A stretch of 64,000 nt of DNA from Escherichia coli (lineage in GTDB: Bacteria > Pseudomonadota > Gammaproteobacteria > Enterobacterales > Enterobacteriaceae), in the NCBI RefSeq assembly GCF_044324875.1, contig NZ_CP172185.1; one strand, written 5' to 3'. The notes beneath the pieces were generated by a model. That model searched no databases. It was given only the letters and a program-made list of their open reading frames with translations, and had not been told where the DNA came from. Position 1 is the first letter of the stretch; the number at the start of each line of letters is the position of its first letter. This document shows, in pieces, positions 2,890-45,672 of this stretch. A program made the translations under genes and the position numbers.

Positions 2890-2969
2890 GCCCACAAATT
2901 TGAAGTAGCTCACACTTATACACTTAAGGCACGGATGGATATTGCTTCTGATATTGTCCGGCCGGACAA

Positions 2970-2997
2970 TGTTACCGATAACAGTTACCCGTAACAT
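2970..2997. promoter_or_regulatory. two adjacent GntR operator palindromes in the gntKU promoter
   Basis: tgttaccgataaca and tgttacccgtaaca palindromes read directly upstream of gntK. Confidence 0.55.
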
Positions 2998-3027
2998 TTT
3001 TATTTCTTGTATTGTGGGGGCACCACT

Positions 3028-3555
3028 TTGAGCACGACTAACCATGATCACCACATTTACGTCTTGATGGGCGTATCGGGCAGCGGCAAATCTGCGGTCG
3101 CCAGTGAAGTGGCGCATCAACTTCATGCCGCGTTTCTTGATGGCGATTTCCTCCATCCGCGCTGCAATATCGAAAAAATGGCGTCTGGCGAACCGCTGAA
3201 TGACGACGATCGCAAACCGTGGTTGCAGGCGCTGAACGACGCCGCGTTTGCTATGCAGCGCACTAATAAAGTGTCGCTGATTGTCTGTTCTGCACTGAAA
3301 AAACACTATCGCGACCTGCTACGCGCGGGTAATCCGAATCTCTCTTTCATCTACCTGAAAGGCGATTTTGATGTGATTGAAAGCCGCCTGAAAGCGCGCA
3401 AAGGCCATTTCTTTAAAACCCAAATGTTGGTGACGCAGTTTGAAACGCTGCAGGAGCCGGGTGCGGACGAAACCGATGTACTGGTGGTAGATATCGATCA
3501 ACCGCTGGAAGGTGTTGTGGCAAGCACCATTGAGGTTATTAAAAAAGGCAAATAA
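3028..3555 (+). CDS. gntK: thermoresistant gluconokinase, probable TTG start
   Basis: P-loop GVSGSGKS; remembered GntK N-terminus MSTTNHDHH corresponds to TTG at 3028; the ATG at 3007 would add 7 residues. Confidence 0.9.
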   Translation: MSTTNHDHHIYVLMGVSGSGKSAVASEVAHQLHAAFLDGDFLHPRCNIEKMASGEPLNDDDRKPWLQALNDAAFAMQRTNKVSLIVCSALKKHYRDLLRAGNPNLSFIYLKGDFDVIESRLKARKGHFFKTQMLVTQFETLQEPGADETDVLVVDIDQPLEGVVASTIEVIKKGK

Positions 3556-3558
3556 GTA

Positions 3559-4899
3559 GTGACTACATTAACGCTTGTTTTAACAGCAGTAGGGTCTGTT
3601 TTACTGCTGCTGTTTTTAGTCATGAAGGCGCGTATGCACGCTTTCCTGGCTTTGATGGTGGTGTCCATGGGGGCTGGCCTTTTTTCCGGTATGCCGCTCG
3701 ATAAAATCGCAGCGACGATGGAAAAAGGGATGGGAGGCACCCTCGGCTTCCTGGCGGTGGTTGTCGCCCTGGGAGCTATGTTTGGCAAGATCTTACATGA
3801 AACTGGCGCAGTCGATCAGATTGCCGTCAAAATGCTCAAATCCTTCGGTCACAGCCGAGCACATTATGCCATCGGCCTTGCGGGGCTGGTTTGTGCGCTA
3901 CCGCTGTTCTTTGAAGTGGCGATTGTTCTGCTGATTAGCGTTGCTTTCTCAATGGCGCGCCACACCGGTACGAACCTGGTGAAACTGGTAATCCCATTAT
4001 TCGCAGGCGTGGCGGCCGCGGCTGCGTTCCTGGTACCGGGGCCAGCGCCAATGCTGCTGGCATCGCAGATGAACGCCGACTTTGGCTGGATGATCCTGAT
4101 TGGCCTGTGTGCGGCAATTCCGGGAATGATTATTGCCGGGCCGCTGTGGGGTAATTTCATCAGCCGCTACGTGGAGTTGCATATTCCTGACGACATCAGC
4201 GAACCGCATCTCGGCGAAGGCAAAATGCCATCTTTCGGATTCAGCCTGTCGCTGATCCTGTTGCCGCTGGTGCTGGTAGGGCTGAAAACCATTGCCGCGC
4301 GTTTTGTGCCAGAAGGCTCTACCGCTTACGAATGGTTCGAGTTTATTGGTCATCCGTTTACCGCGATTCTGGTTGCTTGTCTGGTAGCGATTTATGGCCT
4401 GGCAATGCGTCAGGGCATGCCAAAAGACAAAGTGATGGAGATTTGCGGTCACGCGCTGCAACCGGCGGGGATCATTCTGCTGGTGATTGGTGCAGGCGGC
4501 GTGTTCAAACAGGTGCTGGTTGACTCTGGCGTAGGTCCGGCACTGGGCGAAGCGTTAACCGGCATGGGCCTGCCGATTGCCATCACCTGCTTTGTGCTGG
4601 CTGCGGCGGTGCGTATCATTCAGGGTTCTGCCACCGTTGCCTGTTTAACGGCGGTGGGACTGGTGATGCCGGTTATTGAACAACTGAACTACTCCGGTGC
4701 GCAAATGGCGGCGCTGTCGATTTGTATCGCCGGTGGTTCGATTGTTGTCAGCCACGTTAACGACGCCGGTTTCTGGTTGTTCGGTAAATTTACCGGCGCG
4801 ACCGAAGCCGAAACGCTGAAAACCTGGACCATGATGGAAACCATCCTCGGCACTGTTGGTGCCATCGTTGGGATGATTGCTTTCCAGCTGTTGAGTTAA
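3559..4899 (+). CDS. gntU: low-affinity gluconate:H+ symporter (GntP family)
   Basis: 446-aa polytopic membrane ORF, GntP-family signature, 4 bp after gntK. Confidence 0.95.
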   Translation: MTTLTLVLTAVGSVLLLLFLVMKARMHAFLALMVVSMGAGLFSGMPLDKIAATMEKGMGGTLGFLAVVVALGAMFGKILHETGAVDQIAVKMLKSFGHSRAHYAIGLAGLVCALPLFFEVAIVLLISVAFSMARHTGTNLVKLVIPLFAGVAAAAAFLVPGPAPMLLASQMNADFGWMILIGLCAAIPGMIIAGPLWGNFISRYVELHIPDDISEPHLGEGKMPSFGFSLSLILLPLVLVGLKTIAARFVPEGSTAYEWFEFIGHPFTAILVACLVAIYGLAMRQGMPKDKVMEICGHALQPAGIILLVIGAGGVFKQVLVDSGVGPALGEALTGMGLPIAITCFVLAAAVRIIQGSATVACLTAVGLVMPVIEQLNYSGAQMAALSICIAGGSIVVSHVNDAGFWLFGKFTGATEAETLKTWTMMETILGTVGAIVGMIAFQLLS

Positions 4900-44179: not shown

Positions 44180-45496
44180 TCAAATCACCATATTCAGCAG
44201 CAGACAGCCTACCAGACCGCACACCGAGATAATGGTTTCCAGCATCGACCAGGATTTGATGGTCTCGCCGATAGTCAGGTTAAAGTACTCTTTGAACAGC
44301 CAGAAGCCCGGATCGTTCACGTGAGAGAAAATCACACTACCGGAACCAACCGCAATAACCATCAGCTCCGGGCTAACACCCGTCGTTGCAATCAGCGGTG
44401 CCGCGATACCACCCGCAGTGATTGCCGCAACGGTTGCGGAACCCAGCGCGATACGCAGTACGGCAGCAATCGACCAGGCCATCAGCAGCGGAGAAATGTT
44501 GGTTTCGTGCATCATGGAAGCAATGTATTTGTCCACGCCGCTGTCTACCAGCACCTGCTTGAACGCACCGCCACCACCGATAATCAACAGCATCATCGCA
44601 ATGATTTTGATGGAAGAAACCAGCGTGTCGTTAATCTGATCCATTGAACGACCACGGTTCAGACCAAAGGTGAACATCGCAATCAGTACGGCAATCAGCG
44701 TTGCCATTACCGGGTCACCGAGGAACTCCGCTACCGGCAGGAAAGCGTGACCTTTCGGCAGGATCATTTCGGCAATCGCACGCATCGCCATCAGCACTAC
44801 CGGCACCAGAGAGGTCCAGACGCTGACGCCAAAGCTCGGCATCTCTTCTTCGCTGAAGGTTTTCGCGCTGTACAGACCTTCCGGGATCGGCTTATCGATA
44901 CCTTTCAGCACGCGAGCGTAAACCGGACCGGCGAGAATCACGGTCGGGATTGCCAGAATAGTACCGTACAGCAGGGTTTTACCCATATCGGCATTGAAAA
45001 TGGTGGCAATCGCAGTCGGACCCGGATGCGGTGGCAGGAAGCCGTGGGTCACAGACAGTGCAGCCGCCATTGGTACACCAACATACAGCAGTGGAATATT
45101 CGCGGAAGCCGCGATGGTAAACACCAGCGGCAGCATCAGCACGAAACCCACTTCATAGAACAGGGCAAAACCAACGGTAAAACCGGTCAGTACCACCGCC
45201 CACTGGATGTGTTTTTTACCAAATTTAGCAATCAGCGTGGTGGCGATACGTTGTGCGCCACCACAGTCTGCCAGCATTTTGCCCAGCATTGCGCCAAAAC
45301 CCATGATCAGGGCAAGGCTACCGAGCGTTCCGCCGACACCGGCTTTGATGGAGCCAATAACTTTATCCAGCGGCATTCCTTGCATTAATCCAACAGCAAG
45401 CGCCACGAGGACGAGAGCGATGAAGCCGTTCATTTTGAAACGGATCATCAGGAGCAACAACAAGATTACACCGATAGCAACAATGACTAATGGCAT
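44180..45496 (-). CDS. gntT: high-affinity gluconate transporter (GntP family)
   Basis: 438-aa ORF paralogous to gntU. Confidence 0.95.
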   Translation of the reverse strand: MPLVIVAIGVILLLLLMIRFKMNGFIALVLVALAVGLMQGMPLDKVIGSIKAGVGGTLGSLALIMGFGAMLGKMLADCGGAQRIATTLIAKFGKKHIQWAVVLTGFTVGFALFYEVGFVLMLPLVFTIAASANIPLLYVGVPMAAALSVTHGFLPPHPGPTAIATIFNADMGKTLLYGTILAIPTVILAGPVYARVLKGIDKPIPEGLYSAKTFSEEEMPSFGVSVWTSLVPVVLMAMRAIAEMILPKGHAFLPVAEFLGDPVMATLIAVLIAMFTFGLNRGRSMDQINDTLVSSIKIIAMMLLIIGGGGAFKQVLVDSGVDKYIASMMHETNISPLLMAWSIAAVLRIALGSATVAAITAGGIAAPLIATTGVSPELMVIAVGSGSVIFSHVNDPGFWLFKEYFNLTIGETIKSWSMLETIISVCGLVGCLLLNMVI

Positions 45497-45655
45497 GATT
45501 TACCTGGCCTTTCATTTGTTATGGGTAACGTCAATTTTCTGACGACAAACTCTAATTATCCCAATCGGGAACAGAGATATTGCGGCACCACGACTGATAC
45601 CCACTAAAACTAATTATTGTAGTCAGATGTCAGGAGTATGTTTGGTACCCACGTG

Positions 45656-45672
45656 AATGATACGGGTAACAT
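45656..45672. promoter_or_regulatory. GntR operator-like palindrome in the gntT promoter
   Basis: aatgatacgggtaacat (reverse complement atgttacccgtatcatt), close to the gntK operators. Confidence 0.5.

What the first reader, a model, noticed from the sequence alone, without database searches (positions are those of the whole stretch)
3007..3555. gntK probably initiates at TTG
The remembered GntK N-terminus MSTTNHDHH corresponds to a TTG codon at 3028. The upstream in-frame ATG at 3007 would add MYCGGTT and lies very close to the GntR operators.
Basis: partly seen in the sequence, partly recalled or inferred. Interest (0 to 1): 0.2.

Follow-up and report, generated by a model that had tools for sequence, protein, structure and literature searches.

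The report
gntK gluconokinase starts at TTG

Summary
Window 3028-3555 (+) is gntK, the thermoresistant gluconokinase of E. coli, inside the gntR-gntK-gntU locus. One detail is wrong: the upstream in-frame codon at 3007 is also TTG, not ATG.

- **Annotation:** RefSeq places gntK at exactly 3028-3555 in a 100% identical genome. The Swiss-Prot-named cluster GNTK_ECOLI, PDB 1KNQ and the NCBIfam gluconokinase model all begin at this residue.
- **Ribosome binding:** the only Shine-Dalgarno-like site nearby is GGGGG at 3016-3020 (-8.4 kcal/mol against the 16S rRNA 3' end). It lies 7 nt before 3028 and downstream of 3007.
- **Other species:** in 80 Enterobacteriaceae species the homologous codon is TTG (76) or ATG (4), never a non-start codon. 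With the window included, 81/81 sequences have a Shine-Dalgarno site 5-8 nt upstream.
- **Conservation boundary:** amino-acid conservation with synonymous variation begins exactly at this codon. Further upstream the sequence shows frame-breaking indels and stops, and 36/81 sequences have no upstream in-frame start at all.

A few old automatic GenBank records do carry the 182-aa MYCGGTTL... form, but they are not curated. I could not retrieve direct N-terminal protein data. The finding is already known and of low interest.

The parts
2899..2914 (+). CRP-like site TTTGA-N6-TCACA upstream of the gntK promoter (inferred)
   Evidence: One mismatch to TGTGA-N6-TCACA. A match this good is expected by chance in the window, so the match alone proves nothing. 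Nearly invariant across 20 Enterobacteriaceae.
2942..2947 (+). Probable -35 hexamer TTGCTT (inferred)
   Evidence: TTGC-T is invariant in alignment A1 and lies 17 nt before GACAAT. The consensus promoter scan did not report it.
2965..2970 (+). Probable -10 hexamer GACAAT (inferred); implies a transcription start near 2977-2978
   Evidence: GA-AAT is invariant in A1. The transcription start is not mapped here. If correct, both TTG 3007 and TTG 3028 lie in the mRNA.
2969..2984 (+). GntR operator 1, ATGTTACCGATAACAG
   Evidence: One mismatch to ATGTTA-N4-TAACAT; invariant in A1.
2982..2997 (+). GntR operator 2, CAGTTACCCGTAACAT
   Evidence: Two mismatches to the operator pattern; near-invariant in A1.
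3007..3009 (+). Upstream in-frame TTG (not ATG); judged not to be the start
   Evidence: Searches give the codon. No Shine-Dalgarno site upstream (+0.6 kcal/mol). A start codon sits at this register in only 15/81 sequences. Other species delete this stretch, shift it out of frame or separate it by a stop.
3014..3020 (+). Shine-Dalgarno element GTGGGGG (core GGGGG 3016-3020)
   Evidence: -8.4 kcal/mol duplex with ACCUCCUUA; the only site of -4 kcal/mol or better between 2975 and 3075; 7 nt before TTG 3028. A Shine-Dalgarno site is present 5-8 nt upstream of the start in 81/81 sequences.
3028..3030 (+). gntK initiation codon TTG
   Evidence: Start of the RefSeq CDS. TTG in 76 and ATG in 4 of 80 species. 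Amino-acid conservation begins here.
3028..3555 (+). gntK coding sequence, 175 aa plus TAA (gluconokinase)
   Evidence: NF008583 equivalog scores 371.8 bits against a cutoff of 265. 173/175 residues identical to PDB 1KNQ. RefSeq protein WP_000108319.1.
3067..3069 (+). Internal ATG (Met14); rejected as a start
   Evidence: It immediately precedes the Walker A motif. Residues 2-13 are conserved as protein with synonymous change. No Shine-Dalgarno site upstream. Used as the start only in one E. albertii GenBank record of 163 aa.
3070..3093 (+). Walker A P-loop GVSGSGKS (residues 15-22)
   Evidence: Read directly from the translation; invariant in the species set.
3559..3561 (+). gntU start codon GTG, 3 nt after the gntK stop
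   Evidence: RefSeq CDS. NF007781 profile positions 1-446 match protein residues 1-446.

Best explanation
Window 3028-3555 (+) is gntK, the GntI-system gluconokinase of Escherichia coli. Its mRNA is made from a GntR-repressed and probably CRP-assisted promoter just upstream. Ribosomes are positioned by the GGGGG Shine-Dalgarno element at 3016-3020, which pairs with the CCUCC of 16S rRNA through one G-U wobble. They initiate with fMet at the TTG codon 7 nt downstream (3028), giving the 175-aa protein MSTTNHDHHIYVLMGVSGSGKS.... The in-frame TTG at 3007 is a chance codon in the 5' untranslated leader.

Shown here: the gene's identity, the database annotation, the Shine-Dalgarno geometry and the comparative conservation. 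Inferred: actual ribosome usage in vivo, the promoter hexamers and the position of the transcription start.
For: 1. RefSeq places the gntK CDS at window 3028-3555 in the 100% identical genome NZ_AP022298. Three other E. coli genomes have the same 528-nt CDS.
2. The 175-aa form is the UniRef cluster named GNTK_ECOLI and is found on at least 1000 contigs. The 182-aa forms are found on 25 and 1 contigs.
3. The PDB GntK chain 1KNQ (175 aa) aligns its residue 1 to residue 8 of the long ORF. NCBIfam NF008583 profile position 1 also aligns to residue 8.
4. The Shine-Dalgarno duplex is -8.4 kcal/mol at 3016-3020, the only such site in 2975-3075. It is +0.6 kcal/mol upstream of 3007.
5. In 80 species-level loci the homologous codon is TTG in 76 and ATG in 4.
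6. A Shine-Dalgarno site of -5.6 to -11.8 kcal/mol lies 5-8 nt upstream in 81/81 sequences. At the 3007-equivalent position only 4/81 reach -4 kcal/mol.
7. Codons +2 to +16 are conserved as amino acids, each spelled with 1 to 6 different codons across the 81 sequences. 'Codons' -1 to -10 show no amino-acid conservation, stops at -8 and -9, and 1-16 nt indels.
8. 36/81 sequences have no upstream in-frame start codon at all.
Against: - No direct experimental N-terminal or ribosome-initiation data could be retrieved. The classical gnt papers are not held, and the five supplement sets that could be queried do not list gntK or hold no files.
- The PDB construct and RefSeq follow the accepted annotation, so they are not independent proof of the native N-terminus.
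- TTG 3007 is conserved within Escherichia and some Citrobacter. By my promoter inference it lies inside the transcript, so a trace of initiation there is not excluded.
- A small hairpin (GUGG/CCAC, 3014-3026) partly overlaps the Shine-Dalgarno site.
Confidence: 0.95

Rival explanations
1. Translation starts at the upstream in-frame TTG 3007 and gives a 182-aa protein MYCGGTTLSTTNH..., either as the main product or as a minor extended form alongside the 175-aa protein.
For: - The ORF is open from 2995, and TTG 3007 is the first start-like codon in it.
- Exactly this 182-aa protein is deposited for E. coli SMS-3-5 (ACB16135.1). The K-12-like version is deposited for O157:H7 EC4115 and TW14588.
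- TTG at this register is kept in Escherichia and some Citrobacter.
Against: - No Shine-Dalgarno site upstream (+0.6 kcal/mol). The only one lies inside this putative extension.
- A start codon at this register occurs in only 15/81 sequences.
- Enterobacter deletes the stretch, C. amalonaticus ku-bf3 and S. arizonae have a 1-nt deletion that breaks the frame, and the extension shows no amino-acid conservation.
- RefSeq, the Swiss-Prot-named cluster, the PDB chain and the NCBIfam model all omit it.
Confidence: 0.03
2. Translation starts at the internal ATG 3067 (Met14), the first canonical ATG in frame, and gives a protein of 162 aa here (163 aa in E. albertii).
For: - ATG 3067 is invariant in all 81 sequences.
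- One E. albertii TW07627 GenBank record (EDS93250.1, 163 aa, named shikimate kinase) uses it.
Against: - Residues 2-13 are conserved as protein with synonymous variation, so they are translated.
- No Shine-Dalgarno site precedes 3067.
- The product would begin directly at the Walker A motif. It would lack the beta-strand that precedes the P-loop in P-loop kinases (established knowledge of the fold).
- The solved GntK chain has all 175 residues in its sequence.
Confidence: 0.01

Closest known systems
E. coli K-12 GntK, thermoresistant gluconokinase (UniRef RepID GNTK_ECOLI; PDB 1KNQ, 1KO1, 1KO4, 1KO5, 1KO8, 1KOF)
   Same: Same gene and same locus (gntR-gntK-gntU). 173/175 residues are identical, and the N-terminus MSTTNHDHH and the 175-aa length are the same.
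   Different: Two substitutions relative to K-12: R46C and E100A. Cys46 also occurs in the Salmonella and E. albertii proteins, so this is ordinary natural variation.
IdnK (GntV), the thermosensitive gluconokinase paralogue of E. coli (NCBIfam NF007336 / PRK09825)
   Same: Same GntK/IdnK-type subfamily, TIGR01313 (238.7 bits).
   Different: The window protein scores 181.7 bits against NF007336, below its cutoff of 304, so it is GntK and not IdnK.
Other enterobacterial genes annotated with non-ATG (TTG or GTG) start codons
   Same: A weak start codon paired with a good Shine-Dalgarno site at standard spacing. The codon is replaced in relatives only by another start codon, ATG.
   Different: Nothing distinguishing was found. 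Selection for TTG specifically could not be shown.

Membership tests
Gluconokinase GntK (NCBIfam NF008583 equivalog; GntK/IdnK subfamily TIGR01313) | Whole-protein score above the curated cutoff of the equivalog model | tested here: met
   371.8 bits against a cutoff of 265. Profile positions 1-174 match residues 8-181 of the 182-aa ORF.
Gluconokinase GntK (NCBIfam NF008583 equivalog; GntK/IdnK subfamily TIGR01313) | Walker A P-loop GxxGxGK[ST] near the N-terminus | tested here: met
   GVSGSGKS at residues 15-22 (window 3070-3093), invariant in 81 sequences.
Gluconokinase GntK (NCBIfam NF008583 equivalog; GntK/IdnK subfamily TIGR01313) | Near-identity to the structurally solved E. coli enzyme | tested here: met
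   E = 2.3e-113 against 1KNQ_A over 175/175 residues with 2 substitutions.
Gluconokinase GntK (NCBIfam NF008583 equivalog; GntK/IdnK subfamily TIGR01313) | GntI locus context: gntR upstream, gntU downstream, GntR operators in the promoter | tested here: met
   RefSeq features, NCBIfam equivalog hits for GntR and GntU, and operator matches at 2969-2997.
Gluconokinase GntK (NCBIfam NF008583 equivalog; GntK/IdnK subfamily TIGR01313) | ATP-dependent phosphorylation of D-gluconate to 6-phosphogluconate | not testable with these tools
   This needs an enzyme assay. It is inferred from 99% identity to the characterised enzyme.
Shine-Dalgarno-led gene with a TTG initiation codon | The codon is a permitted initiator and is replaced in orthologues only by other initiators | tested here: met
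   TTG in 76 and ATG in 4 of 80 species; never a non-start codon.
Shine-Dalgarno-led gene with a TTG initiation codon | Shine-Dalgarno complementarity 5-9 nt upstream of the codon | tested here: met
   -8.4 kcal/mol with 7 nt spacing in the window. 81/81 sequences at 5-8 nt.
Shine-Dalgarno-led gene with a TTG initiation codon | The coding signature (amino-acid conservation with synonymous change, no indels) begins at the codon | tested here: met
   Sharp boundary at codon 1. Indels and stops occur only upstream of it.
Shine-Dalgarno-led gene with a TTG initiation codon | Experimentally determined N-terminus or initiation-site profiling peak | not testable with these tools
   The primary papers are not held. 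gntK is absent from the searchable supplement sets.

The most novel reading that the evidence does not exclude
The weak TTG start of gntK may be kept by selection to cap gluconokinase synthesis, rather than being a frozen accident. Start-codon strength and Shine-Dalgarno strength would then be traded against each other: the four ATG-start species have among the weakest Shine-Dalgarno sites (-5.8 to -6.5 kcal/mol, against a mean of -8.2 for the TTG-start species). The whole gntKU operon would be tuned through non-ATG starts, since gntU starts at GTG or TTG. My test does not establish this. T at the first codon position is kept in 77/81 sequences, but 14 of 47 four-fold synonymous sites show equally few transversions. 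The ATG cases represent only about three independent lineages.
Probability: 0.2. Interest if true: 0.2.

Novelty: already known. Interest (0 to 1): 0.04.

Why it matters
It matters little beyond annotation hygiene. The correct 175-aa start is already in RefSeq, Swiss-Prot, the PDB and NCBIfam. The check does show that public databases still carry three different start calls for this gene (182, 175 and 163 aa). It also shows that cross-species comparison resolves such conflicts cleanly without experiments, through the start codon, a Shine-Dalgarno site at fixed spacing, the onset of amino-acid conservation and frame-breaking indels upstream.

Tried and rejected
- **Primary gnt papers:** I tried to read them by PubMed and PMC ids recalled from memory for Tong et al. 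1996 and Tsunedomi et al. 2003. None is held. Izu et al. 1996 and 1997 were not requested; the full-text searches for 'gntK' with N-terminal sequence or TTG start codon found nothing relevant.
- **Supplement tables:** I searched those of initiation-site, N-terminomics and transcription-start studies for gntK.
  - No occurrences: TRAINSPOTTER, INRI-seq, Kim 2012 and the Salmonella riboproteogenomics paper.
  - No supplement text held: the Ribo-RET preprint and Conway 2014.
  - Paper not held: Thomason 2015.
- **Recent gntK-promoter papers:** two say nothing about the start codon or the transcription start.
- **Promoter scan:** the generic scan missed the gntK promoter. I inferred the hexamers from conservation instead, so they remain unverified.
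- **mRNA folding:** folding of the leader gives only weak structure. Unpaired probabilities are similar at both TTGs, so it does not discriminate.
- **Selection on TTG:** the comparison with four-fold synonymous sites was inconclusive.
- **Transcript boundary:** I considered that the transcription start might exclude 3007. My inferred start near 2977-2978 puts both codons in the mRNA, so this argument is not available.

Full report
**What is in the sequence**

On the + strand an ORF is open from 2995 and ends at the TAA at 3553-3555. The next is TTG at 3028, followed by AGC ACG ACT AAC CAT GAT CAC CAC, which reads STTNHDHH. The seven codons between them read YCGGTT after the initiator. GTGGGGG lies at 3014-3020. 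Both candidates are TTG.

**Identity of the gene**

- The stretch 2880-3600 matches 5424 of 5426 complete E. coli genomes at 95-100% identity, always under gntR, gntK and gntU.
- In the 100% identical genome NZ_AP022298, RefSeq annotates gntK at locus positions 1649-2176. This maps to window 3028-3555, 175 aa, WP_000108319.1.
- A K-12-like strain, an O157:H7 strain and a divergent strain carry the same 528-nt CDS.
- NCBIfam's gluconokinase equivalog NF008583 scores 371.8 bits against a cutoff of 265. Its profile position 1 falls on residue 8 of the 182-aa ORF, that is, on TTG 3028. The IdnK model stays below its cutoff.
- The solved E. coli GntK chain (1KNQ and five more entries, 175 aa) aligns its residue 1 to the same position. 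It differs only by R46C and E100A.
- The neighbouring ORFs are GntR and GntU by their equivalog models.

**What the databases call the start**

An exact-sequence look-up shows that all four forms I asked about exist.

| Form | Source | Contigs |
|---|---|---|
| 175 aa | UniRef cluster GNTK_ECOLI and RefSeq 'MULTISPECIES: gluconokinase' | at least 1000 each (capped) |
| 182 aa, MYCGGTTL... (window form) | E. coli SMS-3-5 (ACB16135.1) | 1 |
| 182 aa, MYCGGTTL... (K-12-like form) | O157:H7 EC4115, TW14588 and a few others | 25 |
| 163 aa, starting at Met14 | one E. albertii record, named 'shikimate kinase' | 2 |

Only uncurated submitter calls start there.

**Ribosome-binding geometry**

I computed duplex energies against the 16S rRNA 3' end, ACCUCCUUA (the anti-SD sequence is established knowledge). 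They give -8.4 kcal/mol for GGGGG at 3016-3020. This is the only site of -4 kcal/mol or better between 2975 and 3075. It is separated from TTG 3028 by the 7 nt CACCACT. Upstream of TTG 3007, and upstream of the internal TTG 3064 and ATG 3067, the best duplex is +0.6 kcal/mol. The Shine-Dalgarno site lies downstream of 3007, inside the supposed N-terminal extension.

**Comparative evidence**

One scan of species-representative genomes returned 80 orthologous loci at 90-99% protein identity. They include Escherichia, Salmonella, Citrobacter, Klebsiella, Raoultella, Enterobacter, Kosakonia, Kluyvera, Leclercia, Lelliottia and Buttiauxella.

- The codon homologous to 3028 is TTG in 76 species and ATG in 4 (two Buttiauxella, Yokenella, Trabulsiella). 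It is never a non-initiator.
- All 81 sequences have a Shine-Dalgarno duplex of -5.6 to -11.8 kcal/mol ending 5-8 nt before this codon. At the position equivalent to 3007 the median is +0.6, and only 4 of 81 reach -4.
- Reading outward from the codon, residues 2-16 are conserved as amino acids (S 81/81, T 81/81, T 80/81, N 81/81, ... M14 and G15 81/81), each spelled with 1 to 6 different codons across the 81 sequences.
- The 'codons' upstream show no amino-acid conservation, and stop codons appear at -8 and -9.
- Only 15 of 81 sequences have a start codon at the -7 register, and 36 of 81 have no upstream in-frame start codon before the first stop.
- In the 20-sequence alignment A1, the segment between the GntR operators and the Shine-Dalgarno site carries indels of 1-16 nt.
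  - Enterobacter cloacae lacks the 3007 region altogether.
  - Citrobacter amalonaticus ku-bf3 and Salmonella arizonae have a 1-nt deletion between the Shine-Dalgarno site and the start. This throws the CTTGTA TTG out of frame.
  - From the start codon onward the alignment is gap-free.

This is the pattern expected for an untranslated leader followed by a coding region that begins at 3028.

**Rival starts**

- **TTG 3007.** It is conserved within Escherichia. By my promoter inference (below) it lies inside the transcript, so trace initiation cannot be formally excluded. It has no Shine-Dalgarno site, no conservation as a start and no coding signature. I give it about 3%.
- **ATG 3067 (Met14).** It is invariant, but residues 2-13 are clearly translated, there is no Shine-Dalgarno site, and the product would start directly at the Walker A loop GVSGSGKS. 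It would lack the preceding strand of the P-loop fold (established knowledge). I give it about 1%.

**How it most likely works**

The conservation-supported control region is as follows.

| Element | Coordinates |
|---|---|
| CRP-like site TTTGA-N6-TCACA | 2899-2914 |
| Invariant TTGCTT (probable -35) | 2942-2947 |
| 17-nt spacer | 2948-2964 |
| Invariant GACAAT (probable -10) | 2965-2970 |
| GntR operator 1 | 2969-2984 |
| GntR operator 2 | 2982-2997 |

A transcription start near 2977-2978 would put the CRP site at about -71. It would give a leader of about 50 nt containing both TTGs. These promoter assignments are inference, because the generic promoter scan did not report them and I could not retrieve mapping data. 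On that mRNA the Shine-Dalgarno site at 3016-3020 positions the 30S subunit on TTG 3028. Leader folding is weak and does not discriminate between the two codons.

**Limits**

I could not retrieve any direct N-terminal sequencing or initiation-profiling data for GntK.

- The classical papers are not held, and the full-text searches found nothing relevant.
- Four supplement sets do not list gntK. Two papers hold no supplement text, and one paper is not held.
- The PDB construct and RefSeq follow the accepted annotation and are not independent proof of the native N-terminus.
- From memory, and unverified here, Izu et al. 1996 (FEBS Lett 394:14) purified the enzyme and may have reported its N-terminal sequence.

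**Is the TTG itself interesting?**

T at the first codon position is retained in 77 of 81 sequences. The median major-allele frequency at 47 four-fold synonymous sites of the same gene is 0.62. However, only transversions (to ATG or GTG) preserve a start codon, and 14 of the 47 sites show equally few transversions. Selection for TTG specifically is therefore not demonstrated. The four ATG-start species have among the weakest Shine-Dalgarno sites (-5.8 to -6.5 against a mean of -8.2 kcal/mol). That hints at compensation but rests on about three lineages.

**Verdict**

The finding is correct in its conclusion, wrong in one detail (3007 is TTG, not ATG), already known and of low interest.

Noticed in passing
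window 45516-45531 and 45657-45672 (upstream of ORF 44180-45496, - strand): Two more GntR-operator matches lie just upstream of a 438-aa ORF that is GntT by NCBIfam equivalog NF011560 (931 bits). The second is the exact reverse complement of the 'E. coli GntR operator ATGTTACCCGTATCAT' quoted in bioRxiv 10.1101/2023.01.10.523462. The window therefore holds both GntR-controlled GntI promoters, gntKU and gntT.
   Followed up: partly
window 3553-3609: gntU starts at GTG 3559, 3 nt after the gntK TAA, so both genes of the operon use non-ATG starts. In other species the gntU start is GTG or TTG and sometimes overlaps the gntK stop. A terminator-like hairpin with a T-run (CAGCAGTAGGGTCTGTTTTACTGCTG CTGTTTTTAG, 3584-3609) sits inside gntU codons 9-17. 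Its nucleotide sequence is conserved across genera. It may be the gntK-gntU attenuator that I recall from Izu et al. 1997, which I could not verify.
   Followed up: partly
window 2899-2970: Several elements are invariant across 20 Enterobacteriaceae: the CRP-like site TTTGA-N6-TCACA (2899-2914), TTGCTT (2942-2947) and GACAAT (2965-2970, 17-nt spacing). They probably form the CRP-dependent gntK promoter. The generic sigma-70 scan missed it because the -35 matches only 3 of 6 positions.
   Followed up: partly
window 3163-3165 and 3325-3327 (GntK residues 46 and 100): The window's GntK differs from K-12 and PDB 1KNQ by R46C and E100A. Cys46 is also found in Salmonella and E. albertii GntK, so K-12's Arg46 may be the derived state. 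199 E. coli genomes are at least 99% identical to this allele region.
   Followed up: no
public records for the gene at window 3007-3555: Databases carry three different start calls for the same gene. The 182-aa form is in ACB16135.1 and ACI35719.1, among others. The 175-aa form is in RefSeq and GNTK_ECOLI. The 163-aa form is EDS93250.1 from E. albertii, misnamed shikimate kinase.
   Followed up: yes
L037, L049, L053, L072 (positions 1480-1503): The four species whose gntK starts with ATG (two Buttiauxella, Yokenella, Trabulsiella) have among the weakest Shine-Dalgarno duplexes of the set (-5.8 to -6.5 kcal/mol, against a mean of -8.2 for TTG-start species). This may reflect compensation between start codon and Shine-Dalgarno strength, but the sample is too small to test.
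   Followed up: partly
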